From the sequence record NC_133119.1: a stretch of 64,000 bases of DNA. The stretch is one strand, 5' to 3'. Position 1 is the first letter of the stretch. Every line of letters begins with the position of its first letter. A program made the position numbers and the translations under genes. The notes beneath the pieces are model-generated. The model was not told where the DNA came from, ran no database searches, and worked only from the letters and a program-made list of their open reading frames with translations. Source of the stretch: Escherichia phage EscoHU1. Of this stretch, positions 30,726-44,681 are shown piece by piece.

Positions 30726-30732
30726 ATTTTAT

Positions 30733-31045: not shown

Positions 31046-31050
31046 CGAAT

Positions 31051-31129: not shown

Positions 31130-31392
31130 CAAAATCTTTAAGTTTACTAAGGCTATTAGCTCGGTGTGCGTATTACCCTCAGACATTAGCCAGTAGAGGA
31201 TAACCGCTCTTCACAAACCCGATACACTATTCAGTTGCCGCTGAATCTAGTGGACTAATCTAGAACTTATTGCAAAGTATCCCCCGCCATTAGGGGTCTA
31301 ATTGCAATTGTGCTTTTTGGCAGCCAGTCCTAGGTCGAGCTAATACCTTAGTGAACTTTGATGAGGATTTCTCCTCATCAATTTATATAAAT

Positions 31393-31421
31393 ATTATAAC
31401 AAGAAATTAAGCATCAAGCAA
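31393..31421 (-). promoter_or_regulatory. early sigma70 promoter (-35 TTGCTT, -10 TATAAT)
   Basis: 17-bp spacer. Confidence 0.7.
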
Positions 31422-31773: not shown

Positions 31774-31792
31774 TTCCTTATTTTGAGTTAAT

Positions 31793-31866
31793 TGGTACTC
31801 GGTGATAGAATCGAACTATCGCAACCGCCGTGTAAAGACGGGGTTCTCCCATTAAACTAACCGAGC
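31793..31866 (-). tRNA. tRNA-Val (UAC)
   Basis: Stem CCGTC/GGCGG, loop TTTACAC, CCA encoded. Confidence 0.7.
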
Positions 31867-31999
31867 AAAAGACGTCCTATAATATAGGCTTCAACTACAA
31901 ATTCACAGAAACCTGCTAAAAACATACCTATTGTAAAATCGGCAGAGAATACATAGGAATCTTTTATTTTCTGCTTCATTAAGTAAAACCAGATAGTCA

Positions 32000-32317
32000 T
32001 TAAAATCTCTCCATTCTAAAGCCAATGAAGTAAGGTGCATTACATGGAACATGCTTAAGATCTTTAAGAGTAATTTTACGTCCTAAGCGTCGTTCCATAC
32101 AAGTGAAACATAGAACAATATCTTTGGGCTGCTCTTTTCTTATCTGATCCCATACCCAATCTTCAACCATACACATTTCATGGTATTGTTCACAGTCTCG
32201 ACAATAATGACACTGATGTTCTGGTACTTTTTGATTTTTAATACACAGTTCAGTAAAGCGTTTTCCTGCTCTGCCAGACATTTCTGATATTGTTTCTAGA
32301 ACTTTGTTAATATTCAT
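32000..32317 (-). CDS. Cys-rich zinc-finger-like protein
   Basis: 105 aa; CHYCRDC and CFTC motifs. Confidence 0.45.
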   Translation of the reverse strand: MNINKVLETISEMSGRAGKRFTELCIKNQKVPEHQCHYCRDCEQYHEMCMVEDWVWDQIRKEQPKDIVLCFTCMERRLGRKITLKDLKHVPCNAPYFIGFRMERF

Positions 32318-32334
32318 AACAAATTCCTTTAAAT

Positions 32335-32412
32335 TGGTTGACCGTCTGGGATTCGAACCCAGAACCTACGAGGTAAAAGCTCGGTACTCTTATCCAGTTG
32401 AGTTAACGGTCA
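32335..32412 (-). tRNA. tRNA-Lys (UUU)
   Basis: Loop CTTTTAC; T-arm CTGGGTTCGAATCCCAG. Confidence 0.7.
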
Positions 32413-32600
32413 ATTTAATACATGTATACTTCTTTAATAGAGTAGACTTTCAAGTAAGGATGATTAATACCAAATTCCGCCATCACTTCGTTTTCATCTT
32501 TACCGTAGTGCGCTAGTGGATACTTCTTACGATCTTTGCTAGAACGTAAATCACTTACCTTTAAACGAAATAATTTCATTTCGAAATCCTTCTATTAAAT

Positions 32601-32678
32601 TGGAAGCGGGTGCAGGAATCGAACCTACCTCTTTCTAGCTTATGAGACTAGCGATCTCTACCAGAGATCTAACCCGCA
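32601..32678 (-). tRNA. tRNA, anticodon CAU (Met/fMet/Ile2), 1:72 mismatch
   Basis: Loop CTCATAA; acceptor position 1 unpaired. Confidence 0.6.
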
Positions 32679-32684
32679 ATTATT

Positions 32685-32761
32685 TGGTCTCCAATGAAGG
32701 ACTCGAACCTTCAACCCCACCGCCCCAAACGGTGTACTCTAGCCAATTGAGCTAATCGGAG
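32685..32761 (-). tRNA. tRNA-Pro (UGG)
   Basis: C1:G72, stem CACCG/CGGTG, loop TTTGGGG. Confidence 0.8.
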
Positions 32762-32793
32762 AATATTCTTTGTTAACTCACTTTATAAAATAT

Positions 32794-32822
32794 ATTATAC
32801 AGACATTTAAGTATAATAGCAA
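32794..32822 (-). promoter_or_regulatory. early sigma70 promoter (-35 TTGCTA, -10 TATAAT) preceding tRNA-Pro
   Basis: 17-bp spacer. Confidence 0.7.
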
Positions 32823-32978
32823 ATGAGTTTTTAATAAATTTACTTATTGCGTAGGCCACCTGGAGGGTTCAAGCCCCACGGCTGACAAAGAAGTTTGCGA
32901 GACTTCTCTTAAATGCCAGAATAGACCCGCCGATCTATCGGAACCTACTCGATAAGTAAACTTTCATTTACTTACTTA

Positions 32979-33365
32979 TTATGTGCTGTGTATTTCTCGA
33001 TGACAATTCGCACACACTAAAATACATTTCTGTAATTCTTCTCTCAGCTTATCCCTGGAAATACCAGAGGATCTGAATTGACTAATATTATAGTCTTTTG
33101 AGTTTTCATCAATATGATGAAAATCCAGAGCTTGTTTGCATTTATTATACCCACAAATAGAACATTCTAATATAGGGAAGTATTCTGCAATAATAGAATC
33201 AACAGTTTCACGTCTTTTTGCATTTTCGCTAATCTTACATGTTGGCTTCCACTTTTGTTTACCCGAGGGATATATTCCATTAGTATAGAAATATTCCTTG
33301 GTTAGTGGGTGTTCCACACCACAGTTTTTACAAAACTTGTATTCCATAGCTCCTCGAACAGTCAA
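32979..33365 (-). CDS. HNH homing endonuclease
   Basis: 128 aa; DFHHIDENSKDYN...CANCHREIH. Confidence 0.7.
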   Translation of the reverse strand: MTVRGAMEYKFCKNCGVEHPLTKEYFYTNGIYPSGKQKWKPTCKISENAKRRETVDSIIAEYFPILECSICGYNKCKQALDFHHIDENSKDYNISQFRSSGISRDKLREELQKCILVCANCHREIHST

Positions 33366-33483
33366 TCTAGGCAGGACTTGAACCTGCTATCACTTGTGCG
33401 GATTTACGAGAACCATTCTTTCACTCGAATCGAACGAGCTTCTACCCTCGGCAAGCTGGTGCCCCCTCTCCACCACGCTAGAA
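33366..33483 (-). other. tRNA-like element with two T-arm-like hairpins, no canonical cloverleaf
   Basis: GCAGGTTCAAGTCCTGC and GCTCGTTCGATTCGAGT on minus strand. Confidence 0.25.
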
Positions 33484-33491
33484 TGTTTATT

Positions 33492-33567
33492 TGGTACACC
33501 CACTAGGACTTGAACCTAGAACCCTCCGCTTAAGAGGCGGTAGCTCTAACCATTGAGCTATGGATGT
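33492..33567 (-). tRNA. tRNA-Lys (CUU), tentative
   Basis: D-stem GCTC/GAGC, loop CTCTTAA, A73. Confidence 0.55.
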
Positions 33568-33678
33568 ATATTAGTCCATTGTACATCTACAAAAGAAACC
33601 CCATTTACCGCAGTGTGGACACTGTCCTCCAGAGTTTCTAGCAAAGGATTTGAACTTCATTCAACACTCCTTTAAAGT

Positions 33679-33755
33679 TGGCGCGACCGATGGGATTCGA
33701 ACCCACATTCTCTCCCGTGACAGGGGAGTACCATTACCAAGCCAGCCCCGATCGC
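33679..33755 (-). tRNA. tRNA-Asp (GUC)
   Basis: Stem CTCCC/GGGAG, loop CTGTCAC, G73. Confidence 0.8.
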
Positions 33756-33764
33756 ATAATTTGT

Positions 33765-33950
33765 TTACTCAGCTTTGAGTTTTTCGATAGCTTCCTTAAC
33801 CTCTTTTAGAGCTTCACGACGTGCATTCTGTTGCTGCATATCTTGTATTAACGTCAGTTTTTGGTTTTCAATTTCTTGATCCCAGACCTTAATATTATTA
33901 ATTAGATTATCACGATCAGCTTCTAGTCGAGCAATTGCACGAGTTGTCAT
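33765..33950 (-). CDS. small coiled-coil protein
   Basis: 61 aa ORF. Confidence 0.4.
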   Translation of the reverse strand: MTTRAIARLEADRDNLINNIKVWDQEIENQKLTLIQDMQQQNARREALKEVKEAIEKLKAE

Positions 33951-33977
33951 ATCTATTTCCTCAGTTGTTAATGAAAT

Positions 33978-34060
33978 TGGCGGGCCGTGTAGGATTCGAA
34001 CCTACGTTGTCTTTCGACATGGATTAACAGTCCACCGCCAAACCGCTTGGCTAACGACCC
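33978..34060 (-). tRNA. tRNA-Asn (GUU) with 13-nt variable arm
   Basis: Anticodon arm TGGACTGTTAATCCA as E. coli tRNA-Asn; G73; 83 nt. Confidence 0.65.
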
Positions 34061-34067
34061 TAAAATT

Positions 34068-34143
34068 TGGACGACCGCATGAGATTCGAACTCACATAAG
34101 GAGGTTTTGCAGGCCTCCGCCTAAGCCATTCAGCCAACGGTCG
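34068..34143 (-). tRNA. tRNA-Cys (GCA)
   Basis: Loop CTGCAAA, U73, 3' end GTCGTCCA. Confidence 0.7.
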
Positions 34144-34321
34144 ATTTATCTTGTTTTTCGAGATCAACGAACTCTAAATCGTTGAAGTCTCCTAGAGTAC
34201 GGGAGTAATAACCGTCTCCAGCATCATAGCCTGATTTACCACACTTACACATCTTAAACTCACGTAGACGTGTAAAGATATGTTCAGAGCCACAACACTT
34301 AAATTTAACTAACTTTTTCAT
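34130..34321 (-). CDS. small zinc-ribbon-like protein
   Basis: 63 aa; CxGS...CKC; 3' end overlaps tRNA-Cys by about 14 nt. Confidence 0.35.
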   Translation of the reverse strand: MKKLVKFKCCGSEHIFTRLREFKMCKCGKSGYDAGDGYYSRTLGDFNDLEFVDLEKQDKSTVG

Positions 34322-34560
34322 CCAACACGCTCCGGTAAATCTTCGAGTTTATATTGAGTAGCCACATTAGCAGCATCTAGTAACAAACCCATATGTTTAA
34401 GAATTCTAGTGATAGCCTCGCCTTCTGCTTCTTCTACAAAGCAACGTAGTTGCATGAAGTCAATACCACCATCCATACCAGAGAAAATGTTAAGTAAGCG
34501 AAGCATTACCAGCTTACGTTCTTTTAATTCTTGTTCTGTCATGTTGCTTCTCCAGTTCAA
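34318..34560 (-). CDS. hypothetical protein
   Basis: 80 aa ORF. Confidence 0.4.
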   Translation of the reverse strand: MNWRSNMTEQELKERKLVMLRLLNIFSGMDGGIDFMQLRCFVEEAEGEAITRILKHMGLLLDAANVATQYKLEDLPERVG

Positions 34561-34571
34561 TTTATGTAATA

Positions 34572-34600
34572 ATTATACAGAACTTTAAGCGGTTAAGCAA
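34572..34600 (-). promoter_or_regulatory. early sigma70 promoter (-35 TTGCTT, -10 TATAAT)
   Basis: 17-bp spacer. Confidence 0.7.
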
Positions 34601-34880
34601 CTACATTTTTCAGAAATATGATGCCTTTCTTTTTCTTCTTATATTTCCATGTTAATGGATTCTGTCGATTATGAACGCTTGAGATCTTTGTCTCGTCAAA
34701 GTTCTTCAGTACCATGTAATCACAGGCCAACTGTTCCAGTGGGATGTGATCTCCGTCAAAAGCATAAACATAAGGCTGTTGACTGGCACGATAATGATAT
34801 ACTTTGTTAATTCTGCGTTTCAGTGACTTATCCGCACAGTAAATAAAGAAGTTTTCAGGATGCATCAGCATCTCCTTCAA
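34593..34880 (-). CDS. hypothetical protein
   Basis: 95 aa ORF. Confidence 0.4.
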   Translation of the reverse strand: MKEMLMHPENFFIYCADKSLKRRINKVYHYRASQQPYVYAFDGDHIPLEQLACDYMVLKNFDETKISSVHNRQNPLTWKYKKKKKGIIFLKNVVA

Positions 34881-34882
34881 AT

Positions 34883-34957
34883 TGGTGCACCCCGTTGGTA
34901 ACGATCCAACCTCTCAAGCTCTTCAGGCAAGCGCTAATCCATCTCAGCTAAAGGTGC
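34883..34957 (-). tRNA. tRNA-Phe-like (GAA), two U-U mismatches in anticodon stem, non-canonical T-loop
   Basis: Acceptor GCACCTT/GGGGTGC + ACCA; loop CTGAAGA; T-loop ATCGTTA. Confidence 0.5.
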
Positions 34958-34963
34958 AAATAT

Positions 34964-35043
34964 TGGCAAACCTACTAGGACTCGAACCTAGACCGTACGG
35001 TTTTGGAGACCGACATGCTGTCCAGTAACACTCTAGGGATGCA
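34964..35043 (-). tRNA. tRNA-Trp-like (CCA), 5' acceptor strand does not pair
   Basis: TCGGTCTCCAAAACCGT arm, T-arm, G73-CCA like E. coli tRNA-Trp; 5' half aberrant. Confidence 0.4.
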
Positions 35044-35048
35044 GAAAT

Positions 35049-35125
35049 TGGCGTCCTGTGCGGGGATCGAACCCGCAAATCCTACCTTGAAAGGGTAGTG
35101 ACTTTACCAGTTTGTCTAACAGGAC
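35049..35125 (-). tRNA. tRNA-Glu (UUC)
   Basis: GTCCTGT...ACAGGACGCCA ends, loop CTTTCAA. Confidence 0.8.
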
Positions 35126-35132
35126 TTAAATT

Positions 35133-35223
35133 TGGTGTTGGATGATGGAGTCGAACCACCCGAGACCCTTCCGAGTCGGCAGATTTACAGTCTGCTTCGC
35201 TACCTCTACGATACTAATCCAAC
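35133..35223 (-). tRNA. tRNA-Tyr (GUA)
   Basis: 91 nt; anticodon arm GCAGACTGTAAATCTGC identical to E. coli tRNA-Tyr. Confidence 0.85.
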
Positions 35224-35348
35224 ATATTTGAATGAAAAGTAAGTCGGTTAAACTCAAGGTGGAATATTTCAGGAAATCCTGACTTTACCCCTAAAAGCAA
35301 CTCGCTTAGTTACTTCTCATTCAGATATGTTTTCCAAATTAGATAACT

Positions 35349-35377
35349 ATTATACCAAGTTTTGAAGGACTGAGCAA
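35349..35377 (-). promoter_or_regulatory. early sigma70 promoter (-35 TTGCTC, -10 TATAAT) preceding tRNA-Tyr
   Basis: 17-bp spacer. Confidence 0.6.
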
Positions 35378-35413
35378 GTCAAATTTTAAAGAACTTGCTC
35401 AGTGCTATATCAG

Positions 35414-35689
35414 TTACTCGAAGCTAGGAGTGACACTCAGTTTGAATGGAAGCTCGAACACTTCTTCATAATCATCATTGAGCGTAATTACACGACCTTC
35501 TAGCTTAGTCATGGTGATTTCGATATCAGCCCTTGCATCAGGAGCCATACCAGCTTCCACACATTTAGCTTTGACTTCCGGCAGAAGTTCTACATCGTAG
35601 AAATAAAGCCATTCAATCTCACCCTCCCAGCCACCCCAGGATTTACAAACAGCACTTTCAACACCAGTTGCAGTAACACGTTTTGACAT
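35414..35689 (-). CDS. hypothetical acidic protein
   Basis: 91 aa ORF. Confidence 0.45.
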   Translation of the reverse strand: MSKRVTATGVESAVCKSWGGWEGEIEWLYFYDVELLPEVKAKCVEAGMAPDARADIEITMTKLEGRVITLNDDYEEVFELPFKLSVTPSFE

Positions 35690-35719
35690 TCGTTAACCCC
35701 TTCATCAATTTATATAACT

Positions 35720-35749
35720 ATTATATCAGAAATCTTAAGTAAAAAGCAA
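35720..35749 (-). promoter_or_regulatory. early sigma70 promoter (-35 TTGCTT, 18 bp, -10 TATAAT)
   Basis: Hexamers read on minus strand. Confidence 0.65.
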
Positions 35750-35779
35750 GTACATTTTTAAAATTTCTGCTTGGAGGAG

Positions 35780-36052
35780 TTAAACTCCTGATTCTTCAGC
35801 CAGATCAAGCCCAACCAACGTGATTGCCATAATAGCTGCGCCATGTTCTTTCTCTCCTAGCTCTTTGGCTTGAGTGAGAATATTGAGGAATTGCTTTTGA
35901 AAATCTGCAACTTCTTCTGTCATGCCTGCTTCAGCAATAATTCCTTTCAGCATAAAGCGTTGTGCTGTAATTTCAGGATTAGCCATTTGTTTTCTCCAGT
36001 TATTTAGAATGTAAGCCAAACTTAGGATCATAGCGATCGTAAGTCGTACCAT
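35780..36052 (-). CDS. hypothetical protein
   Basis: 90 aa ORF. Confidence 0.45.
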   Translation of the reverse strand: MVRLTIAMILSLAYILNNWRKQMANPEITAQRFMLKGIIAEAGMTEEVADFQKQFLNILTQAKELGEKEHGAAIMAITLVGLDLAEESGV

Positions 36053-36137
36053 TAGTTGAAGCCTTGATGCTATGAAAACGACAGTACATAAATTTACGTA
36101 GTGCTTTCTTAATAGCTTTCATTTTATTTCCTTAATT

Positions 36138-36214
36138 TGGTAGGGGTGGTGGGATTCGAACCCACAAAACCCGAATTTTAAGTCCGGTACCTATGCCAAT
36201 TCGATTACACCCCC
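36138..36214 (-). tRNA. tRNA with anticodon UAA (Leu by anticodon) in class-I frame
   Basis: 77 nt; stem CCGGA/TTCGG, loop CTTAAAA, 5-nt variable loop. Confidence 0.6.
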
Positions 36215-36223
36215 ATGTAATCT

Positions 36224-36571
36224 TTAGAGTTCGTAACCCTGAATATATCGAGCAAAACCAGTAATCTCGAACTGAATTGCCCATGCTACTTCCATATGCT
36301 CAATCTTACTAAAATGAGCGTCAGACTGTTCTAGGAAATAACGAGAGATTATAGGGAACTCAATGTCAAAATCTTCCTTATCCATACCATAGAAGAAGTT
36401 TCCAGAAATATTACGAACTTCACGAAAGAAATCCTCAATCTGAAAATCCATCAGAGGATAAGTATATTCCTCTTTGCTATCATCCGTTTGGAAGAAGCGG
36501 AAATGCACAAGGCAAGAGCCAATCAGATTTACTGCTGGAGTAGTGTAAATATCCATGTTAACCTCGATCAA
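36224..36571 (-). CDS. hypothetical acidic protein
   Basis: 115 aa ORF. Confidence 0.45.
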   Translation of the reverse strand: MIEVNMDIYTTPAVNLIGSCLVHFRFFQTDDSKEEYTYPLMDFQIEDFFREVRNISGNFFYGMDKEDFDIEFPIISRYFLEQSDAHFSKIEHMEVAWAIQFEITGFARYIQGYEL

Positions 36572-36743
36572 TATCTAGAGAAATTCCAAATTCTGGATTA
36601 ATACCAGAACCATTACATGCTGCACATTCCCACTCTTCAAAACGCATATCGCCAGGTTCAGCATCATTAATAGTACCTGTTCCATGGCAGTGAGCACACA
36701 TGCACTCTTCTAGTTCTTGTTTAAGCTCTTGAAACTTAGACAT
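36558..36743 (-). CDS. small Cys-rich protein
   Basis: 61 aa; CAHCHGTG...CAACNGSG. Confidence 0.4.
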   Translation of the reverse strand: MSKFQELKQELEECMCAHCHGTGTINDAEPGDMRFEEWECAACNGSGINPEFGISLDIDRG

Positions 36744-36760
36744 ATAGTCTCCTAGTTAAT

Positions 36761-36838
36761 TGGTGGCTCCCGGAGGATTCGAACCTACCTACCTTTCGCT
36801 TATGAGGCGACGGCTCATACCAAATGAGCTTGAGAACC
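36761..36838 (-). tRNA. tRNA, anticodon CAU (third CAU species)
   Basis: Acceptor GGTTCTC/GGGAGCC, loop CTCATAA, CCA encoded. Confidence 0.65.
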
Positions 36839-36843
36839 AAATT

Positions 36844-36915
36844 TGGAGGAAGATGCCAGACTCGAACTGGCACACCGTGTCTCCACAGCTACTGGCTGTT
36901 TAGCAAACAGCTCCC
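36844..36915 (-). other. tRNA-like element (T-arm, acceptor, CCA) with truncated anticodon region
   Basis: GCCAGTTCGAGTCTGGC + ATCTTCC-T-CCA; only about 16 nt between D-arm and T-arm. Confidence 0.3.
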
Positions 36916-36951
36916 TTACCTTTAGGGTTAATCTTCCAAATTTATGAATAT

Positions 36952-36980
36952 ATTATATTAGAAATTTAGCTTCATGGCAA
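36952..36980 (-). promoter_or_regulatory. early sigma70 promoter (-35 TTGCCA, -10 TATAAT)
   Basis: 17-bp spacer; overlaps stop of upstream gene. Confidence 0.6.
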
Positions 36981-37431
36981 GAAAATTTTTCAAGTTTTCT
37001 GTATTCATTTCATCTAAATCCATGAGGGAAGTAAACCCATTTAGTTTTTTAGCAAACTTCTCACCAGCAGAATCATTATCGCCTACGGCTACTACTTTAA
37101 AAGGTTGTAATTTTAGCTGCTTTAGCAATGCTTTGCTAGGGGAAGATCCTAGCATTGCTAGTGCGGGATATCCCGCGTTGTGTAGTGCCACAGCTTTAAA
37201 TACAGATTCTGCAACTAATACTAGGTCTTCATTACCTGTAAGAGTTTCTAAACCCCATAGACATTGAGTAGAAGAATGCGTAAAATATTTAGCTTCAGAA
37301 GGACATTTTCCATGACCTTTAGCTGCACTAGGGTTATATGTTTGATATCCACGTAACATGCCAGAGAAATCATACAGTGGAACTGTTAACCATCCATGTG
37401 GAGAGCCAACAGTGATACTTACCACTATCAA
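36958..37431 (-). CDS. hypothetical protein (possible Toprim-like fold)
   Basis: 157 aa; LVLVAESV...VVAVGDNDSAGEKF. Confidence 0.4.
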   Translation of the reverse strand: MIVVSITVGSPHGWLTVPLYDFSGMLRGYQTYNPSAAKGHGKCPSEAKYFTHSSTQCLWGLETLTGNEDLVLVAESVFKAVALHNAGYPALAMLGSSPSKALLKQLKLQPFKVVAVGDNDSAGEKFAKKLNGFTSLMDLDEMNTENLKNFLAMKLNF

Positions 37432-37505
37432 AGCCCCTAGATAAAAGATGTTGTTTTAACTCGTCAACAGTCATATATGACTCCTATCTATAATTTATAG
37501 AATAT

Positions 37506-37534
37506 ATTATATAGAAAATTTCGGCATTAAGCAA
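37506..37534 (-). promoter_or_regulatory. early sigma70 promoter (-35 TTGCTT, -10 TATAAT)
   Basis: 17-bp spacer. Confidence 0.7.
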
Positions 37535-37542
37535 GTGAAATT

Positions 37543-37839
37543 TTACTGAACACTGCACTGATACACTTGTTTGATACGTGTCACTGACTTCTTAGTTGGA
37601 TTGATAGAAGAACCTTGCCACCAACGTGATTCTGAGCTGAGAACAGCACCAGGAACAGCTTGTTCTTTTGGCAGAACAATATCAAAACATTGCTCACCCA
37701 TATTATCTTTAATGTGTGACCAAATATCCAAAGTAAATCGTTCTAACTTATTACAAACCTGAACTTGACAAAGTTCCTGTTGCGGAGCAGCAAATACAGA
37801 AGTAGATACTAGAGTCAATGCAAGTACAATGCGTTTCAT
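37543..37839 (-). CDS. secreted protein (signal peptide)
   Basis: 98 aa; MKRIVLALTLVSTSVFAAP. Confidence 0.45.
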   Translation of the reverse strand: MKRIVLALTLVSTSVFAAPQQELCQVQVCNKLERFTLDIWSHIKDNMGEQCFDIVLPKEQAVPGAVLSSESRWWQGSSINPTKKSVTRIKQVYQCSVQ

Positions 37840-37869
37840 GTTTGATTCCTCTCTCGAATTTATAAATAT

Positions 37870-37898
37870 ATTATACAGAAATTTTCTATATTAAGCAA
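37870..37898 (-). promoter_or_regulatory. early sigma70 promoter (-35 TTGCTT, -10 TATAAT)
   Basis: 17-bp spacer. Confidence 0.7.
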
Positions 37899-37916
37899 GT
37901 GAAAATTTCTGTATAA

Positions 37917-37937
37917 TAGCCCTCGCTTAGAGGGCTA
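37917..37937 (-). terminator. hairpin terminator (TAGCCCTC-GCTTA-GAGGGCTA)
   Basis: Directly after PnuC-like stop. Confidence 0.45.
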
Positions 37938-37945
37938 TAACTACT

Positions 37946-38638
37946 TTATTTGTTAACGCGTACAAAGTATCCTTTATAGGCTCCAAGAATGGAGTTACCT
38001 AAGAATACTAGCCACATTGCTAGGATTGCATAAGATGCACCTGTAGATTGAGCAGTTACAAGCCAAATGTATACAGTACCAATGTTAATAGCAATCCAGA
38101 TCAGCCATTGTTCAGCATATTGCTTGACCATAAGCCACATAGCAATCACACTACCAACCGCAGTAAATGCATCGAGCATCGGGAATGGATCAGCTGTAGT
38201 AGCAAGGAAGCTACCGTAACCTAAAGTAGCTACTGCTAGAACCCCTAGAGTCAGCAAAGCTTGGGCTTTAGTCAGAATCTTAGTTGGAACATCTGGCAGA
38301 TTACTTGGCTTATTTTTATGCCATAAGTACATTCCGTAGAACTGCATAGGAACGTAGTACAATAGGTTTAATGCTGCGTTACCATAAAGATCTGCATTTA
38401 AAGCTGTAATACCATAGGTAAGAACACCAACTAAGCCCCAAATATAGTTGGAAACGCGTCCTTTTGCAACCAAAATAACACAAACTACGTTGGTTATCGC
38501 AGTAGCCCAATCTAGAGGTGTACCATTATAGTTAGCTAAACTAATGAAGGCAACCGCTATGAACAGCCACAGATATTCCAGAGGTTTCCAGTTTTTAAAG
38601 TCATTTACGAGATAGTTAGTCATATTAAAACTCTCCAA
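37946..38638 (-). CDS. pnuC: nicotinamide riboside/NMN transporter PnuC-like
   Basis: 230 aa multi-TM; family resemblance (WLFIAVAFISL...YGMYLW). Confidence 0.65.
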   Translation of the reverse strand: MESFNMTNYLVNDFKNWKPLEYLWLFIAVAFISLANYNGTPLDWATAITNVVCVILVAKGRVSNYIWGLVGVLTYGITALNADLYGNAALNLLYYVPMQFYGMYLWHKNKPSNLPDVPTKILTKAQALLTLGVLAVATLGYGSFLATTADPFPMLDAFTAVGSVIAMWLMVKQYAEQWLIWIAINIGTVYIWLVTAQSTGASYAILAMWLVFLGNSILGAYKGYFVRVNK

Positions 38639-39945: not shown

Positions 39946-40974
39946 ATGACAGAAGAAGTAGCTAAGAAACCTGAATCTCTAAGTGAAGTAGCAGCAGAAC
40001 TGCATCGTCACGAAGAATCAGACAAGAAAAAGTGGGAAAAGCTTAAAGCTCAAGAGCGAGCTGACGAGCATCATTATCATCATCACCATCATGAACACTA
40101 TGAGGAAGATGATGAAGACGACGAAGAAGAAGATGAACATGAACATCATGGTTATCACAAATATGGAGAAAGAAAAATGCAAGAACCAGTAAACGTATTC
40201 ACTAACGGCTTCCCTGGCCTGATGGGTGGTTACCCAGCTAACGCAGGTGCTTTCGGTGGAGAAGGTATGGGTCTATTCGGAGCTATCCTAATCGGTGCTC
40301 TATTAACAGGCGGATTCGGTGGATTTGGTGGATTTGGCGGACGTGGAGCAGGTGCTGTGGCTGAATTAACTGGTGTAGAAACTGTTCTGAGTAACCAAAA
40401 TACGTCAAGTATCCTATCTGCAATCAATACTGCTCGTACTGAAGCTAACCAGGGAACTGGTGCTGTTCTAAGCGCAGTAAATGGTGTAGGTGCTGCAGGT
40501 GCTGCTAGCACTCAGCAGATTCTGACTTCTCTGTACGGTACTGGTGCTAACCTGTCCAATCAGATCTGTCAGGAAACTCGTAGCGTTATTCAGGGTCAGT
40601 TTGACCTGTCTCGCCAGATCGATCAGTCCTTCGCGGCTAACCAGATCGCTCGTGCTCAAGACAAGTTTGATGCTGCTCAGATCGCTTTCCAGCAGACTAT
40701 TCAGACTAACAACCAGTTCGCTGCTGTAGCTGCACAGGCGTGCGCTAACCAGAACGCTCTGGAACGTCAGATCGCTGAATGTTGCTGTGAACTTCAGACT
40801 GCAATCGCTGGTGTAACTACTGCGCGTATTCAGGATGAATTAGATGAATGCCGTCTGCGTGAAGCAATCGCTGCAGGTAATGGTGCTAATGGTCAGGTAA
40901 TCAACCAAATCGCTGTAAGTCTTGGTGCTATCACTCAGACTCTAGCTGGTCTGCAGGCTAAACTGCCGGCTTAA
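39946..40974 (+). CDS. low-complexity protein: His/acidic-rich N-terminus, Gly-rich segment, Q/A-rich C-terminus
   Basis: AGGAGG RBS then ATG (track's GTG start at 39937 trimmed); HHYHHHHHEHYEEDDEDDEEEDEHEHH; GGFGGFGGFGG. Confidence 0.55.
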   Translation: MTEEVAKKPESLSEVAAELHRHEESDKKKWEKLKAQERADEHHYHHHHHEHYEEDDEDDEEEDEHEHHGYHKYGERKMQEPVNVFTNGFPGLMGGYPANAGAFGGEGMGLFGAILIGALLTGGFGGFGGFGGRGAGAVAELTGVETVLSNQNTSSILSAINTARTEANQGTGAVLSAVNGVGAAGAASTQQILTSLYGTGANLSNQICQETRSVIQGQFDLSRQIDQSFAANQIARAQDKFDAAQIAFQQTIQTNNQFAAVAAQACANQNALERQIAECCCELQTAIAGVTTARIQDELDECRLREAIAAGNGANGQVINQIAVSLGAITQTLAGLQAKLPA

Positions 40975-40996
40975 TAATTAAGGGGAGGAGCCCATT

Positions 40997-41431
40997 ATGA
41001 GTAAATATGGTTTTGTGAACAACGGATTTAATCAACAAATGGGCTCCCAGCAGCCCGTTCCGGGTCTAGATAACCCTTACTTACAACAGTTGCAACAGCG
41101 TTTGGCAGAAGCACAAAATATGCAACAGCAGTTCCAACAACCTGGAACTGCTAACCCTATGCAGATGATGCAACAGCAAATGGTAGGGCAGCCGCAAATG
41201 CCTCAACAAATGCAGCCTCAGATGCAGCAAATGCAACAAATGCCTCAACAGCAGCAAGTTCAACAACTCCAACATCCGCAGGTATCTGCGGAAGGACAGG
41301 CTGTTCTAGCCCTTTTCGAAGACTTCGCTAAAACAGAGGATGGGAAGCAACTTGTATCGCTTATGGGTAAGTTTAACAGCTTCTGTCAGAGTCAGGTTGC
41401 AAAAGCTCAGAATGGGGGTAATAACTCCTAA
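40997..41431 (+). CDS. Gln-rich protein
   Basis: 144 aa; GGAGG RBS; long Q/M/P repeats. Confidence 0.5.
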   Translation: MSKYGFVNNGFNQQMGSQQPVPGLDNPYLQQLQQRLAEAQNMQQQFQQPGTANPMQMMQQQMVGQPQMPQQMQPQMQQMQQMPQQQQVQQLQHPQVSAEGQAVLALFEDFAKTEDGKQLVSLMGKFNSFCQSQVAKAQNGGNNS

Positions 41432-41440
41432 GGAGAAATT

Positions 41441-41635
41441 ATGTGTTGTAGAAAACCTGTGTCATGCTGTCCTATGCCTGTAGCACGTTGTTGCTCTCCA
41501 GCAATGTTTACACAAATACCGGTGTTCAATCCCTTTGCCTTTAAGCCTACTCTTATCCTGCCCCCTAGAGTAGATTTTCAGTCAAGATTGGTCTCCCGTA
41601 TGGGTGGTTGCTGTACACCGAGAGTATGGTTCTAA
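41441..41635 (+). CDS. small Cys-rich protein
   Basis: 64 aa; AGGAG RBS; 9 Cys. Confidence 0.4.
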   Translation: MCCRKPVSCCPMPVARCCSPAMFTQIPVFNPFAFKPTLILPPRVDFQSRLVSRMGGCCTPRVWF

Positions 41636-42287: not shown

Positions 42288-43232
42288 TTACTTATTACGC
42301 ATATCCATGATCATCTGGCCATCGTAACCAGTTCCCACTACTGTTTGCGGTACACCACCTTGGTATTTTTCAGCACGAAGCATTTCAACTTCCAGCTGCT
42401 TCCAACGAATCATTTCAGGAGTAATGGTACGTTGCAGAGCGGCGTTAGCTTCAGCTTCTTTCTTAGCTGCGTACAGTTTAGCATCTGCGTCACGTTCGTT
42501 AGCTACTGCCATGTTTTCACGAGCAGAGCGATCTGCTTCAGCTTGCTTAACTTTCTGCTGTGCTTCTTGTTCAACACGAGCCAGTTCAGCTTTTGCTGCG
42601 TTAACTTGTTCTTCACGAACTTTTGTGTTCTGTACCTGTTCCATAATTACCGGTGGCAGAGTAATATCCTGAAGGAATACTTGCTTAACGGTGTAACCAT
42701 AAGGGCGCGCATACTCTTCTACTTCTTGCTGAATAGCAGTTTGCAGTTGAGCCTGAATCTTAGCGTCGAACAGATCTTGTGCTTTTGGTACAGACTTACC
42801 AAACTCACGAATCGTAGATAGCATCTTCTCTTCAACGTATTTGTTAAGAGCTTGATCCTGAGTACCTGCGTTAACACGGTTCATAGGAGCTTTAGCTCCA
42901 TCAAACTGTAACATAACGGTAATGTCAACAGTAGACTTAAACTTATCCTGGCTAGGAACCTGAAGTTTATCCAGTTTCATAGAAATATCTTTCGTACTAA
43001 AAGTATCAAAAGAGGCTAATGGGTTAACAATATGGAAGCCTGGCAATACAGGATTCGGGCTAACTTTACCCAGGAAAGTTTGAGTCTTAACAGTACCATC
43101 CTGAACAACTGTATAGGAATTGAGAGCCAGAATAAGAGCACCAAGACCAACAGCAGCACCAACACCCCAACGTTTAATAGTACGAATTACTTTTTGCTCA
43201 GAAGTCAGTTCTTTAGTGTTTTTAGTAAACAT
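42288..43232 (-). CDS. SPFH/band-7 (stomatin/prohibitin/HflK-like) membrane protein
   Basis: N-terminal TM then SPFH-like core and long coiled coil; start moved to MFTKNTKEL to clear the tRNA. Confidence 0.65.
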   Translation of the reverse strand: MFTKNTKELTSEQKVIRTIKRWGVGAAVGLGALILALNSYTVVQDGTVKTQTFLGKVSPNPVLPGFHIVNPLASFDTFSTKDISMKLDKLQVPSQDKFKSTVDITVMLQFDGAKAPMNRVNAGTQDQALNKYVEEKMLSTIREFGKSVPKAQDLFDAKIQAQLQTAIQQEVEEYARPYGYTVKQVFLQDITLPPVIMEQVQNTKVREEQVNAAKAELARVEQEAQQKVKQAEADRSARENMAVANERDADAKLYAAKKEAEANAALQRTITPEMIRWKQLEVEMLRAEKYQGGVPQTVVGTGYDGQMIMDMRNK

Positions 43233-43265
43233 ATATTTCCTTTGTTTAGTTACAGTTAATAAAAT

Positions 43266-43340
43266 TGGCCGAGGTGACAGGATTCGAACCTGCATAAAGG
43301 AATTTAGAAGACTCCTGCCTATCCCTTAGACTACACCCCG
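43266..43340 (-). tRNA. tRNA-Arg (UCU)
   Basis: Loop CTTCTAA, T-arm GCAGGTTCGAATCCTGT, G73-CCA. Confidence 0.75.
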
Positions 43341-44199
43341 TTTAGGTATTTTTAAGAACTCTCGTAAAAGTCCATAAAAATACCCGACGGTAGGTAGGGT
43401 CAGCCCCCTCAGATTAAGCTCTGCAGCCCTTCCGTCAGACAATATCTTCCAGTTTAAGTCAGGGTGACTTTGTGGTTATGTTCTCCGTATGTGAAGAACT
43501 CGGTTAGGCTTAGGTCATGACTCCCAGCCTGCTGCTGCCGCTCAACAGGAATTATCGCGAATTACCTGTACTATTGGGCACCATTAGTGACATCTCTCAT
43601 GTCAGCATTTCCCACTCTCATATTCACGCGGTCTGTTAGAATCGCACCTCCGATTTTCGATGCGAAGCTGGATGCCTAGTCTCTAGGTTAAACGGGGCAC
43701 ACACTAGGCAGTGATCCCGAGTTCCGAGTTTGGTTGAGGCCGTCAGGTTTCCTCGTGGTTTAGCTGTTTCGATTCTAACCTAATACTGATCAGGCGGTGT
43801 ACCTCCTGAACCGTCATAGTATGTACTACAGCAGCGAATGCTTATCCGGTATAAGCCCGAGTTATCTGATTCTTTCCGACCGCAGGATTCGAACCTGCAT
43901 CTTCCACCAGTTACGGTTTGATATTACCGTTTATACTAGGACGGCAGTGTTATCACATAAGTCAGTTCGACACCCCACTAACATAAACTAGAGAAGAGTT
44001 TACGAGATTTCGGGACAGCTCCCGAGTTTTCCGCAGATTTTCAGTTCCCTATCAATAGCAATAAGCGTTAGCTCGTAGCCTCTCTCAGAGTACTTACTAG
44101 TCTCCAACTCACCGACTCTATTCAGTGGAATAGCTATCCTAGTAGGAATCACTAAACTCACTCAGCGTAATCGGCTCGCTGTTCTCTAATTTATGAATC
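43341..44199 (-). ncRNA. candidate structured non-coding RNA / long leader (GC-richer ORF-free island)
   Basis: About 860 nt with no ORF of 60 aa or more on the transcribed strand; immediately downstream of promoter 44200-44228; T-arm-like hairpin at about 43875-43895. Confidence 0.35.
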
Positions 44200-44228
44200 T
44201 ATTATACAGAATTTTGAAGCGTTTAGCA
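44200..44228 (-). promoter_or_regulatory. early sigma70 promoter (-35 TTGCTA, -10 TATAAT) reading into the ORF-free island
   Basis: 17-bp spacer. Confidence 0.7.
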
Positions 44229-44237
44229 AATCAATTT

Positions 44238-44681
44238 TTAATTAAATTCGCCAGCAACCTGAGCAGCAATGCCACCATCGTAACGACCAGGAAACTCTTC
44301 CTTAATCGCTTTCATCAGCATACCCTTTGTAATCCCAGGATTCAACTTAACTAATTCTGCAAAGTATTTGCGAATCTCAGAATCAGATAACTGAGGCGGC
44401 AGATACTGTTGTAGCCATTTGTTCAGTATATATTCATACTGAGCAGACTGCAAGCTATAATTATCAAGGTCTTGACCGTGAAGTTTAGCTTTCGTCTGAT
44501 TAATGCTTTTCAGTTGAGCTTTTAGATAAGATACAAACTGTTCAGAAGTAATGAAGTCTTTATCAACACGCTGAAGATCTCCGATTATGGTCTGGTAGCT
44601 TTTAGCTACTTCTTTATCAGAACCATCAACCTTAGATTCCTGCAAAGCCCTACGCAAAACATCTAGAATATTCTCTTCCAT
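44238..44681 (-). CDS. GatB/YqeY-domain-like protein
   Basis: 147 aa; C-terminus GMLMKAIKEEFPGRYDGGIAAQVAGEF. Confidence 0.5.
   Translation of the reverse strand: MEENILDVLRRALQESKVDGSDKEVAKSYQTIIGDLQRVDKDFITSEQFVSYLKAQLKSINQTKAKLHGQDLDNYSLQSAQYEYILNKWLQQYLPPQLSDSEIRKYFAELVKLNPGITKGMLMKAIKEEFPGRYDGGIAAQVAGEFN

What the first reader, a model, noticed from the sequence alone, without database searches (positions are those of the whole stretch)
43341..44199. GC-richer ~0.86 kb ORF-free island transcribed from a strong early promoter, upstream of tRNA-Arg(UCU)
Everywhere else in this early region genes are packed with almost no spacing, yet here ~860 nt downstream of promoter 44200-44228 carry no ORF of 60 aa or more on the transcribed strand and look more GC-rich and more structured than the surrounding AT-rich DNA. 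The segment ends at tRNA-Arg(UCU) and contains a second T-arm-like hairpin (about 43875-43895, GCAGGTTCGAATCCTGC) nearly identical to that tRNA's T-arm but without a pairable acceptor stem. This fits a processed structured RNA (ribozyme-like, tRNA-derived, or regulatory) or a decayed mobile insertion. It is the best candidate in the window for an undescribed element.
Basis: partly seen in the sequence, partly recalled or inferred. Interest (0 to 1): 0.8.

Follow-up and report, generated by a model that had tools for sequence, protein, structure and literature searches.

The report
RNAX: large structured T5-phage RNA
This gene-free stretch encodes the phage's copy of RNAX, an ~850-nucleotide, intricately folded non-coding RNA made from a strong early promoter next to a tRNA gene; T5 reference annotation already lists it as a "stable RNA with unknown functions", but its fold and job have never been worked out.

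Summary
Window 43341-44194 (- strand) has no ORF over 53 aa, is 46.3% GC against 40.1% for the window, follows a consensus early promoter (44229-44201) and abuts tRNA-Arg(UCU).

It is not undescribed. It is the ortholog of rnaX/RNAX, annotated "stable RNA with unknown functions" in the T5 reference genome, BF23, Salmonella phage 5 and DT571/2. Homologs occur in 523 phage records (Tequintavirus, Epseptimavirus, Sugarlandvirus). None was found in 5,426 E. coli genomes, and the core motif is absent from 100,044 bacterial genomes.

No Rfam family matches except tRNA. Covariation is strong: 23 base pairs show compensatory double changes, against 0-3 in slid controls.

The RNA is modular:
- a 5' helix closes a swappable 5' domain;
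- a 12-bp helix carries a tRNA-like cloverleaf, replaced by a plain hairpin in two phages;
- a variable centre follows;
- the conserved 3' domain has invariant loops, one an 8-nt palindromic loop (AGUCAUGA) on covarying stems.

The layout parallels GOLLD RNA: phage-borne, beside a tRNA island, conserved 3' half, variable 5' half, tRNA in the linker. The GOLLD and ROOL models do not match, however.

Function is unknown. My best guess is an abundant trans-acting scaffold RNA released by RNase P.

The parts
44201..44229 (-). Sigma-70 early promoter (T5 'P16-17' equivalent): -35 TTGCTA, 17-nt spacer, -10 TATAAT
   Evidence: Consensus scan, 10 of 12 matches. One of 8 near-identical promoter copies in the window, 0 expected by chance. 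The homologous position is annotated as promoter P16-17 in BF23 and T5.
43341..44194 (-). RNAX transcript, about 854 nt. The 5' end at 44194 is inferred from promoter geometry; the annotated start in BF23/T5 maps to 44187. The 3' end is the RNase P site at the tRNA-Arg 5' end.
   Evidence: Homology to the annotated rnaX of BF23, DT571/2 and T5. No ORF over 53 aa. Substitutions show no 3-base periodicity. MFE z = -3.3 on this strand only.
44182..44194 (-). P1 helix, 5' strand (AUAAAUUAGAGAA, RNA positions 1-13)
   Evidence: A 13-bp duplex with 43983-43995. The same pairing closes a 36-nt hairpin in T5/DT571/2 and 170-215-nt domains in BF23-type and window-type RNAs. Compensatory variants are seen, e.g. 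AGAUG/CAUCU in L024.
43996..44181 (-). Variable 5' domain, inserted in the P1 loop
   Evidence: Present in window-type and BF23-type RNAs at about 72% identity. Absent in T5/DT571/2. Replaced by an HNH endonuclease ORF in phagemcphageface, bux and SE3.
43983..43995 (-). P1 helix, 3' strand (UUCUCUAGUUUAU)
43966..43982 (-). Conserved single-stranded leader GUUAGUGGGGUGUCGAA
   Evidence: The motif TGG[GT]GTG is present in 52 of 52 variants.
43952..43965 (-). Long helix carrying the tRNA-like module, 5' strand
   Evidence: Pairs with 43857-43870. 12 pairs, 100% of cells paired, 6 pairs with compensatory double changes.
43874..43945 (-). Embedded tRNA-like cloverleaf. It has an acceptor stem, a D arm with GG, and a T arm GCAGG-UUCGAAU-CCUGC. 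The 'anticodon arm' is non-canonical: a 3-bp stem with a 6-nt loop.
   Evidence: Rfam tRNA 29.3 bits here and 33-39.6 bits in relatives. ARAGORN makes no call here and gives inconsistent calls in relatives: Ser-ACT, SeC-TCA, '???'. T-stem, acceptor and anticodon-like stems all covary. Replaced by a plain hairpin in INF11 and SH9.
43857..43870 (-). Long helix carrying the tRNA-like module, 3' strand (contains GAUAACU)
   Evidence: G[AG]TAACT is present in 52 of 52 variants.
43840..43856 (-). Hairpin GCUUAU-ACCGG-AUAAGC
   Evidence: 5 pairs, 2 with compensatory changes (UA/AU/CG and CG/GC).
43619..43839 (-). Central variable domain
   Evidence: Shared with Epseptimavirus-type relatives and partly with Klebsiella Sugarlandvirus phages. 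Replaced in BF23/T5 types. Its structure was not resolved here.
43346..43618 (-). Conserved 3' domain. A multi-hairpin junction closed by GUGG/CCAC (43612-43615 with 43472-43475) is followed by the AGUCA-CCC-UGACU hairpin, a single-stranded UAAACUGGAAGAUA, a three-way junction with a CUUAAU joiner, and a terminal hairpin.
   Evidence: 33 distinct sequences, 60 pairs, 99.1% of cells paired. 11 pairs have double changes, against 0-3 in slid controls, and 0 of 500 shuffles reach the observed values.
43507..43529 (-). Hairpin presenting the invariant 8-nt loop AGUCAUGA (loop 43515-43522; palindrome UCAUGA)
   Evidence: AGTCATGAC is present in 52 of 52 variants, and this motif was not used to collect them. 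It folds as a hairpin loop on stems of different sequence in 20 of 20 distinct contexts. Stem pairs covary: CG/UA/UG and GC/UA/AU/GU.
43443..43470 (-). Hairpin AAGUCA-CCC-UGACUU followed by the invariant single strand UAAACUGGAAGAUA
   Evidence: Present in all variants. Caveat: the later database scans were seeded with this motif. The hairpin is 100% paired, with one C-G to U-G change.
43346..43383 (-). 3'-terminal AT-rich hairpin GUAUUUUUAUGGAC-UUUU-...GUUCUUAAAAAUAC
   Evidence: 16 pairs, 99.6% paired, changes on one side only. A T-A to C-G change is seen in the Klebsiella and L046/L056 variants.
43341..43345 (-). 5-nt linker CUAAA between the terminal hairpin and tRNA-Arg
   Evidence: Read directly from the sequence.
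43266..43340 (-). tRNA-Arg(UCU). Its 5' processing by RNase P would define the RNAX 3' end.
   Evidence: ARAGORN and Rfam, 49.3 bits. rnaX abuts the tRNA-Arg in the T5, BF23 and DT571/2 annotations.

Best explanation
The segment is the rnaX gene of a T5-like (Epseptimavirus-type) phage. It encodes a large, stable, highly structured non-coding RNA.

Biogenesis (inferred, about 0.8 likely):
- Host sigma-70 RNA polymerase starts at the early promoter 44229-44201.
- It transcribes about 854 nt of RNAX, then tRNA-Arg(UCU) and the SPFH/band-7 gene, up to the terminator at 42264-42233.
- RNase P cleavage at the tRNA-Arg 5' end releases RNAX.
- The ends of RNAX are buried in the P1 helix (5') and an AT-rich terminal hairpin (3'). 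That would explain why it accumulates as a stable species.

Architecture (shown by covariation): swappable peripheral modules hang on a conserved core. The modules are the 5' domain, a tRNA-like cloverleaf on a 12-bp helix, and the central domain. The core carries invariant unpaired motifs.

Function (inferred, about 0.25-0.3 likely): RNAX acts in trans as an abundant early scaffold or decoy RNA of the GOLLD/ROOL type. Its invariant loops contact a conserved partner. That partner may be another RNAX copy, through the palindromic AGUCAUGA loop. The tRNA-like elbow is an optional accessory. The role would be linked to the phage's tRNA and translation take-over programme.
For: - Identity: the window shares 82-84% identity with annotated rnaX over the tRNA-like module and the 3' domain. 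Promoter and tRNA-Arg lie in the same relative positions.
- Non-coding: no ORF over 53 aa, and variable columns fall 37/38/34 and 22/30/24 across the three codon phases.
- Structure: strand-specific folding, z = -3.3 against -0.15. In the 3' domain, 99.1% of cells are paired and 11 pairs show double changes. In the tRNA-like module, 99.8% are paired and 12 pairs show double changes. No shuffle of 500 reaches these values, and slid controls give 0-3 such pairs. Many conserved G-U pairs fix the transcribed strand.
- Modularity: RNAs range from 634 to 1290 nt with the same core motifs in 49-52 of 52 variants.
- Distribution: 523 phage records across three genera. None in E. coli genomes. The core motif is absent from 100,044 bacterial genomes.
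- Promoter: it belongs to an 8-copy family in the window, and no terminator lies before 42264.
- GOLLD parallels come from the literature: phage-encoded, near tRNA islands, universally conserved 3' region with a less conserved 5' region, and tRNAs sometimes in the linker (10.1101/2024.12.08.627333).
- The invariant palindromic loop sits on covarying stems.
Against: - I saw no expression or end-mapping data. 'Stable RNA' rests only on GenBank annotations, and I could not find the underlying paper.
- The transcription start is inferred. The annotated start in BF23/T5 maps 7 nt further downstream, which would shorten P1 to 6 bp.
- RNase P might also cut at the embedded tRNA-like element and split the RNA.
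- In relatives with a 169-aa ORF between RNAX and tRNA-Arg, the 3' end cannot be made by that RNase P cut.
- The GOLLD and ROOL covariance models do not match, so the functional analogy rests on context and layout only.
- The palindromic loop could instead pair within the molecule with the AGUCA...UGACU hairpin, or bind a dimeric protein.
- The sequence set contains only a few deep lineages, so some covariation counts are inflated by shared ancestry.
Confidence: 0.72

Rival explanations
1. It is only a long processed leader or spacer of the tRNA-Arg/SPFH operon. It would hold a decayed tRNA pseudogene and remnants of homing-endonuclease traffic, with no function of its own.
For: - The embedded tRNA-like element has a degenerate anticodon arm and two acceptor mismatches in this window.
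- HNH endonuclease and other ORFs insert at both edges in relatives.
- Domains are swapped or lost between phages.
Against: - Neutral spacer would not keep 99% base pairing with 23 compensated pairs.
- It would not keep invariant loops across Tequintavirus, Epseptimavirus and Sugarlandvirus.
- It would not have its own copy of the strong early promoter in every phage examined.
- The region is GC-richer than coding DNA.
Confidence: 0.1
2. It is a cis-acting regulatory leader (riboswitch, attenuator or processing platform). It would control expression or maturation of the downstream tRNA-Arg and SPFH gene.
For: - It is co-transcribed with tRNA-Arg, with no intervening terminator.
- The terminal hairpin sits 5 nt from the RNase P site.
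- The upstream gene is YqeY-like, a tRNA-related domain scoring 25.4 bits, just under the cut-off.
Against: - At 640-1290 nt it is far larger than known leaders.
- No terminator or anti-terminator pair, and no sequestered ribosome-binding site, was found.
- The downstream neighbour varies. It is tRNA-Arg directly, or a 169-aa ORF, or in Klebsiella phages two ORFs before tRNA-Arg.
- It is annotated as a separate stable RNA.
Confidence: 0.1
3. The region encodes one or more small proteins, as several GenBank records annotate (2-4 'hypothetical proteins' of 33-65 aa).
For: Seabear, HildyBeyeler, K7_rec1 and other records carry small CDS calls inside the homologous region. A 53-aa GTG ORF exists at 44000-44161.
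Against: - Substitutions show no codon periodicity.
- The ORF calls differ between records and are absent from most.
- Indels are not multiples of three.
- Changes are compensatory in RNA helices, including G-U intermediates.
Confidence: 0.03
4. It is a catalytic or mobile RNA: a self-splicing intron, another ribozyme, a retron-like or guide RNA.
For: It is large and ornate, with invariant unpaired nucleotides. Homing endonuclease genes lie beside it in relatives.
Against: - No Rfam intron, RNase P, tmRNA, HEARO, retron or other ribozyme family matches at E up to 10, in the window or in five divergent relatives.
- It interrupts no gene, so there are no exons to join.
- No reverse transcriptase or nuclease partner is conserved next to it.
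Confidence: 0.05

Closest known systems
RNAX (rnaX, T5s08) of phage T5; also annotated in BF23, Salmonella phage 5 and DT571/2
   Same: - Same locus: YqeY-like gene, promoter P16-17, RNAX, tRNA-Arg(UCU), SPFH/lipoprotein gene.
- Homologous sequence across the tRNA-like module and the 3' domain (82-84% identity).
- Same core motifs.
   Different: - The window RNA is about 854 nt, against 719 nt (T5), 784 nt (BF23) and 636 nt (DT571/2).
- Its 5' domain is only about 72% identical to BF23's and is absent from T5.
- Its central domain is unrelated to that of T5/BF23.
- T5 carries an extra 87-nt insert with a duplicated core motif.
- The annotation gives no structure, function or reference.
GOLLD RNA (Rfam RF01998)
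   Same: - Phage-encoded and beside a tRNA island.
- About 800 nt and very elaborately folded.
- Conserved 3' region with a variable 5' region.
- A tRNA (here a tRNA-like element) sits in the linker between them.
- Function is unknown (for GOLLD; for RNAX).
   Different: - The GOLLD covariance model finds no match at E up to 10.
- Hosts differ: Enterobacteria here, against Lactobacillales and aquatic bacteria.
- The phages here are strictly lytic T5-like phages.
- Multimeric nanocage formation is untested.
ROOL RNA (Rfam RF03087)
   Same: A large ornate RNA of phages and prophages near tRNA genes. It is abundant and of unknown function, and its quaternary contacts include kissing loops.
   Different: No covariance-model match. 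[quoted passage not shown]
tRNA-like modules inside larger RNAs (tmRNA tRNA-like domain, bacterial Y RNA YrlA, MALAT1 mascRNA; recalled from general knowledge)
   Same: An acceptor/T-arm/D-arm 'elbow' is kept while the anticodon arm is non-functional, and the module is embedded in a larger transcript.
   Different: - Here the acceptor stem continues into a 12-bp leader-trailer helix, so it has no free 3' end.
- No CCA is encoded.
- The module is dispensable in INF11 and SH9.
- ARAGORN calls no tmRNA in the window, and Rfam lists no match other than tRNA over this region.
Small stable RNAs of the T5 tRNA region (RNAI, RNAIII, RNAIV, RNA1, RNA2, RNA2H, RNA3)
   Same: They have the same annotators and the same label, 'stable RNA with unknown functions'. 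Several are noted as tRNA-like, and all lie in the same early tRNA region.
   Different: They are 73-172 nt; RNAX is four to ten times larger. Homology to RNAX was not tested.

Membership tests
RNAX (annotated misc_RNA of T5-like phages) | Sequence homology to annotated rnaX | tested here: met
   82-84% identity over query 625-975, plus the tRNA-like block, to BF23, DT571/2 and T5-type RNAs.
RNAX (annotated misc_RNA of T5-like phages) | Position between a P16-17-type promoter and tRNA-Arg(UCU), downstream of the YqeY-like gene | tested here: met
RNAX (annotated misc_RNA of T5-like phages) | Accumulates as a discrete stable RNA in infected cells | not testable with these tools
   Only the GenBank note 'stable RNA with unknown functions' is available. 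No paper was found.
tRNA (RF00005), for the embedded element 43874-43945 | Covariance-model score at or above the gathering cut-off | tested here: met
   29.3 bits against a cut-off of 29 in the window (borderline); 33-39.6 bits in relatives.
tRNA (RF00005), for the embedded element 43874-43945 | Canonical anticodon arm (5-bp stem, 7-nt loop) with a consistent anticodon | tested here: not met
   Covariation supports a 3-bp stem with a 6-nt loop. ARAGORN makes no call in the window and calls Ser-ACT, SeC-TCA or '???' in relatives.
tRNA (RF00005), for the embedded element 43874-43945 | Free acceptor end (single-stranded 3' tail / CCA) after processing | tested here: not met
   Leader and trailer form a covarying 12-bp helix stacked under the acceptor stem, and no CCA is encoded.
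GOLLD RNA (RF01998) | Match to the family covariance model | tested here: not met
   No hit at E up to 10 in the window region or in five divergent homologs.
GOLLD RNA (RF01998) | Phage-encoded, near tRNA genes, with a conserved 3' and a variable 5' region and a tRNA in the linker | tested here: met
   compared with the description in 10.1101/2024.12.08.627333.
GOLLD RNA (RF01998) | RNA-only homo-oligomeric nanocage | not testable with these tools
   Only an invariant palindromic hairpin loop was seen as a possible self-contact.
ROOL RNA (RF03087) | Match to the family covariance model | tested here: not met
   No hit at E up to 10.
Group I / group II introns, RNase P RNA, tmRNA | Match to any Rfam model of these classes | tested here: not met
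   No hit at E up to 10. ARAGORN calls no tmRNA in the window.
CsrB-type protein-sponge RNA | Enrichment of GGA motifs | tested here: not met
   19 GGA observed against 16.1 +/- 3.4 in shuffles; 4 ANGGA against 4.7.

The most novel reading that the evidence does not exclude
RNAX is a third, independent class of self-assembling 'ornate' phage RNA alongside GOLLD and ROOL. Copies would associate through the invariant palindromic AGUCAUGA loop and other invariant motifs into an RNA-only or RNA-protein assembly. That assembly would act on tRNAs or ribosomes early in infection. Because RNAX sits in T5, a classical and genetically tractable E. coli phage, the unknown function of this whole kind of RNA would become directly testable.
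Probability: 0.15. Interest if true: 0.85.

Novelty: new member of a known kind. Interest (0 to 1): 0.55.

Why it matters
T5 is a textbook phage, yet one of its most strongly promoted early transcripts is a 0.6-1.3 kb RNA that has no Rfam family, no published structure that I could find, and no known function. In most of the roughly 500 sequenced relatives it is either left unannotated or mis-annotated as 'hypothetical proteins' or odd tRNAs.

This analysis supplies a covariation-supported fold, a minimal core and a set of invariant loops to mutate. The shortest natural versions, T5/DT571-2 type at about 640-720 nt, approximate that core.

Large ornate phage RNAs next to tRNA islands (GOLLD, ROOL) are now known to form giant RNA cages, but their biology is a blank. 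An analogous RNA in an E. coli/Salmonella/Klebsiella lytic phage family, one used for phage therapy and defence-system screens, offers a practical route to that biology.

At the least, a family model would clean up annotation of hundreds of genomes.

Tried and rejected
- Rfam scans at a permissive threshold, on the window region and on five divergent homologs, gave only tRNA hits. Intron, ribozyme, GOLLD, ROOL, OLE, raiA and tmRNA readings were rejected as memberships.
- CsrB-like sponge: GGA motifs are not enriched.
- Protein coding: no long ORF and no codon periodicity.
- DNA-level element: rejected because folding and G-U covariation are specific to the transcribed strand.
- Host or prophage origin: no match in 5,426 E. 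coli genomes, and no exact core motif in 100,044 bacterial species genomes.
- Complementarity of the invariant motifs to E. coli 16S, 23S and 5S rRNA:
  - The best hit is 8 nt, AGUCAUGA against 16S 1478-1485. 19 of 200 shuffles do as well, so it is not significant.
  - Three weak 16S hits cluster in helix 44, but they are not collinear.
- A brute-force all-against-all covariation scan for pseudoknots was swamped by signal from the two dominant lineages and gave nothing usable.
- A constrained full-length fold gave no trustworthy model for the central domain.
- Eight literature searches found no accessible paper on RNAX, and no T5 transcriptome describing it.
- The T5Mos deletion (30661-38625) does not reach rnaX (40848-41566), so it says nothing about dispensability.
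- The SPFH protein search could not be used to count T5-like genomes, because T4-like phages carry the gene too.
Full report
**What is there**

The window is a T5-like phage genome segment. It is 98% identical to Salmonella/Escherichia Epseptimavirus phages such as Seabear, Stitch and beppo.

The flagged stretch, 43341-44199, lies on the - strand. It sits between a YqeY-like gene (44238-44681) and tRNA-Arg(UCU) (43266-43340).
- The longest ORF on the transcribed strand is 53 aa, and no ORF of 80 aa or more lies on either strand across 43296-44237.
- GC is 46.3% against 40.1% for the window, the 98th percentile of same-sized windows.
- A TTGCTA-17-TATAAT promoter sits at 44229-44201. Its -10 and initial transcribed region recur eight times in the window, where none is expected by chance. 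It is therefore a member of the phage's early promoter family. From memory it closely resembles the classical T5 PN25-type promoters, which places +1 at 44194.
- No terminator-like site occurs before 42264-42233, beyond the SPFH/band-7 gene.
- The RNA folds much better than shuffles on the - strand (z = -3.3) but not on the + strand (z = -0.15).

Two details need correcting.
- The 'T-arm-like hairpin' (43882-43898) belongs to a whole tRNA-like cloverleaf that does have an acceptor stem.
- The gap is not the only ORF-poor stretch in the window.

**Identity**

The homologous region is annotated as misc_RNA 'rnaX: RNAX, stable RNA with unknown functions' in four records:
- the T5 reference genome (NC_005859, T5s08, 40848-41566, 719 nt; it starts inside promoter P16-17 and ends exactly at the tRNA-Arg 5' end);
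- the BF23 tRNA-region record (784 nt);
- Salmonella phage 5;
- DT571/2 (636 nt).

The T5 record lists seven further small 'stable RNAs' in the tRNA cluster.

The element is therefore not undescribed, although I found no accessible paper that characterises it. Most other GenBank records leave the region blank. Others place two to four small 'hypothetical proteins' there, or a 'tRNA-OTHER/Sec/Pro/Ser'.

**Distribution**

BLAST finds homologs in 523 phage records: Salmonella, Escherichia, Klebsiella, Shigella, Citrobacter and other phages of Tequintavirus, Epseptimavirus and Sugarlandvirus. It finds none in 5,426 complete E. coli genomes. The exact core motif occurs in no contig of 100,044 bacterial and archaeal species genomes.

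I assembled 52 distinct versions from phage records, IMG/VR and metagenomes. They range from 634 to 1290 nt.

**Not coding, not a known RNA family**

Variable alignment columns are spread evenly over the three codon phases: 37/38/34 and 22/30/24.

Rfam 15 at E up to 10 gives only tRNA hits, in the window and in five divergent homologs. There is no intron, RNase P, tmRNA, GOLLD, ROOL, OLE, raiA or other family. GGA motifs are not enriched, so it is not CsrB-like.

**Structure**

*3' domain (43346-43618).* I used 33 distinct sequences.
- The RNAalifold consensus has 60 pairs, and 99.1% of cells are paired.
- 11 pairs show changes on both sides. Versions with partners slid by 1-3 columns give 0-3 such pairs.
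- None of 500 column shuffles reaches the observed pairing, double-change count or covariation score.

*tRNA-like region (43824-43982).* I used 23 sequences.
- There are 35 pairs, 99.8% of cells are paired, and 12 pairs have double changes, against 0-1 in slid controls. No shuffle of 500 reaches these values.

Many pairs are conserved G-U, or pass through G-U. That fixes the structure to the transcribed strand.

The caveat printed with the tool applies. The sequences fall into a few lineages, so cell counts overstate the number of independent events. The number of distinct compensated pairs and the slid controls are the stronger evidence.

**Architecture in this window** (RNA position i corresponds to window 44195 - i)

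- **P1.** The first 13 nt (44194-44182) pair with 43995-43983. In T5 and DT571/2 the same helix closes a 36-nt hairpin, while in window-type and BF23-type RNAs it encloses a 170-215-nt domain. L024 carries a compensated variant.
- **5' domain (44181-43996).** This is an insert in the P1 loop. In phagemcphageface, bux and SE3 it is replaced by an HNH_3 homing-endonuclease ORF.
- **Leader.** GUUAGUGGGGUGUCGAA is conserved.
- **Helix carrying the tRNA-like module.** Strands 43965-43952 and 43870-43857 form 12 pairs, six of them compensated. The helix continues into the acceptor stem of the tRNA-like cloverleaf (43945-43874).
- **The cloverleaf.**
  - It keeps a D arm with the GG dinucleotide, a UUCGAAU T loop and covarying T and acceptor stems. 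The T stem occurs as GCAGG/CCUGC, GUAGG/CCUAC and GUGGG/CCCAC. The acceptor stem occurs as GCCGUCC/GGACGGU and GCCGAUC/GAUCGGU.
  - Its 'anticodon arm' is only a 3-bp stem (ACC/GGU or GGC/GCC) with a 6-nt loop. In phB7 and some Klebsiella phages it is instead an extended hairpin.
  - ARAGORN does not call it here and assigns inconsistent identities elsewhere.
  - In INF11 and SH9 the whole cloverleaf is replaced by an unrelated small hairpin on the same helix.
  - It is thus an optional tRNA-shaped decoration, not a decoding tRNA and not the core.
- **Hairpin 43856-43840.** It covaries.
- **Central domain (43839-43619).** It is lineage-specific. I could not model it reliably.
- **3' domain.** It consists of:
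  - a junction closed by GUGG/CCAC that holds several covarying hairpins;
  - the AGUCA-CCC-UGACU hairpin;
  - the invariant strand UAAACUGGAAGAUA;
  - a three-way junction with a CUUAAU joiner;
  - a terminal AT-rich hairpin ending 5 nt before tRNA-Arg.

One junction hairpin stands out. The 8-nt loop AGUCAUGA (43522-43515) contains the palindrome UCAUGA. It is present in 52 of 52 variants, and this motif was not used to collect them. It folds as a hairpin loop in all 20 distinct sequence contexts, while the stem sequences differ completely between lineages.

**How it probably works**

*Shown:* a conserved, strand-specific, modular fold behind its own strong promoter, directly upstream of a tRNA.

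*Inferred with good confidence:* RNAX is released from a promoter-RNAX-tRNA-Arg-SPFH transcript by RNase P cleavage at the tRNA 5' end. It is stabilised by base-paired termini. This agrees with the annotated 3' end in T5, BF23 and DT571/2.

*Inferred with low confidence:* function. The combination of features resembles large ribonucleoprotein or RNA-only scaffolds rather than a regulator of a particular mRNA. Those features are:
- swappable peripheral domains;
- invariant unpaired motifs;
- an optional tRNA elbow;
- very high inferred expression;
- placement at the edge of the tRNA island.

The published description of GOLLD matches the RNAX layout point for point. GOLLD is described as encoded in phages and prophages, often near tRNA islands, with a universally conserved 3' region, a less conserved 5' region, and phage tRNAs sometimes in the linker. 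GOLLD and ROOL assemble into cages through kissing loops, which makes the invariant palindromic loop a natural candidate for self-contact.

This is analogy, not membership, because the GOLLD and ROOL models do not match. The loop could equally pair with the nearby AGUCA...UGACU hairpin or bind a dimeric protein.

**Rivals**

- Functionless spacer with a tRNA pseudogene: contradicted by covariation and invariant loops across three genera.
- Cis-regulatory leader: no terminator or RBS logic, a variable downstream neighbour, and too large.
- Small proteins: no periodicity and inconsistent ORFs.
- Ribozyme or mobile RNA: no model match, no interrupted gene and no conserved protein partner.

None is excluded by experiment.

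**Novelty and interest**

The existence of RNAX is on record, so this is a new member of a known but uncharacterised family. Relative to T5 it has variant 5' and central domains.

New here are:
- the covariation-supported fold and the modular anatomy;
- the finding that the tRNA-like module sits on an extended helix and is dispensable;
- the invariant palindromic loop;
- the parallel with GOLLD.

I score interest at 0.55. A specialist would not be astonished that T5 makes a stable RNA. However, a 0.7-1.3 kb ornate RNA that is absent from Rfam, sits in a model E. coli phage and occurs in about 500 relatives is a worthwhile, directly testable lead into the unknown biology of giant phage RNAs.

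Noticed in passing
L057 867-889 (JGI metagenome contig Ga0315885_101303, 1565 nt): The contig holds an exact copy of the 23-nt RNAX core motif AGTCACCTTGACTATAACTGGAA. It has no ORF over 73 aa, no Rfam hit and none of the other RNAX motifs. It is either a chance match (roughly 0.1-0.3 expected, by my own rough estimate of the size of that scan) or a very distant large non-coding relative.
   Followed up: partly
L038 115-597 (phagemcphageface); the same ORF occurs in bux, SE3 and L016: A 160-aa HNH_3 homing endonuclease ORF (E = 1.2e-11) replaces the RNAX 5' domain directly behind the same promoter. In these phages the RNA core is the 3' part of an endonuclease mRNA.
   Followed up: partly
L002 2475-2984 (beppo); also bux, bobsandoy, TrudiRoth, ende: A 169-aa ORF with no Pfam match is inserted between the RNAX terminal hairpin and tRNA-Arg. 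There the RNAX 3' end cannot be made by RNase P at the tRNA.
   Followed up: no
L062 (phage T5), RNAX positions about 548-672 of the extracted sequence: T5's own RNAX carries an 87-nt insert with inverted-repeat ends. The insert is flanked by a direct duplication of the 22-nt core motif AGTCACCTTGAC(T/A)TAAACTGGAA, which looks like a target-site duplication. The same occurs in metagenome locus L048.
   Followed up: no
L034 (INF11) and L036 (SH9), homologous to window 43874-43945: The tRNA-like cloverleaf is replaced by an unrelated hairpin of about 45 nt, while the flanking helix strands are kept. The tRNA mimic is therefore not essential to the RNA.
   Followed up: yes
window 43515-43522, 43468-43474, 43580-43587 against E. 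coli 16S rRNA 1409-1485: Three conserved RNAX motifs have 6-8-nt complements clustered in 16S helix 44: CACCAU at 1409, CUUUGUG at 1469 and UCAUGACU at 1478. None is individually significant (the best is matched by 19 of 200 shuffles) and they are not collinear.
   Followed up: partly
window 43901-43914 and 43444-43454: The anticodon-like and variable region of the tRNA-like element (AACUGGUGGAAGAU) resembles the invariant single strand of the 3' domain (AACUGGAAGAU). The resemblance is lost in the L038-type variants, so it may be coincidence.
   Followed up: no
window 44238-44681 (-): The gene immediately upstream of the RNAX promoter is YqeY-like (GatB/YqeY-type domain; 25.4 bits, just below the cut-off of 27). 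It is annotated 'tRNA amidotransferase' in T5. In Klebsiella Sugarlandvirus phages the upstream gene is an endolysin instead.
   Followed up: no
window 61958-63589, 4519-5719, 30359-31413, 33366-34317: These are other stretches with no ORF of 80 aa or more on either strand. The last two lie in the tRNA cluster, where T5 annotates small stable RNAs (RNAI, RNAIII, RNAIV, RNA1, RNA2, RNA2H, RNA3). The first two were not examined.
   Followed up: no
window 43232-43265 compared with L001 2535-2772 (Seabear): Close relatives carry an extra 201-nt ORF (VOG10019) between tRNA-Arg and the SPFH gene. It is missing from this window, which accounts for the ~200-bp difference in the first BLAST.
   Followed up: partly
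window, 8 sites: 15499, 37857, 39698, 44188, 44870, 45710, 47035 (-) and 58755 (+): A family of near-identical promoter and initial-transcribed sequences (TTCTGTATAATAKATTCATAAATT, up to 3 mismatches), where 0 are expected by chance.
   Followed up: partly
GenBank records of relatives (e.g. Seabear, HildyBeyeler, K7_rec1, bastian, Gostya9, phB7): The RNAX region is widely mis-annotated, as 2-4 small hypothetical proteins or as tRNA-OTHER/Sec/Ser/Pro. A family model would correct hundreds of records.
   Followed up: partly
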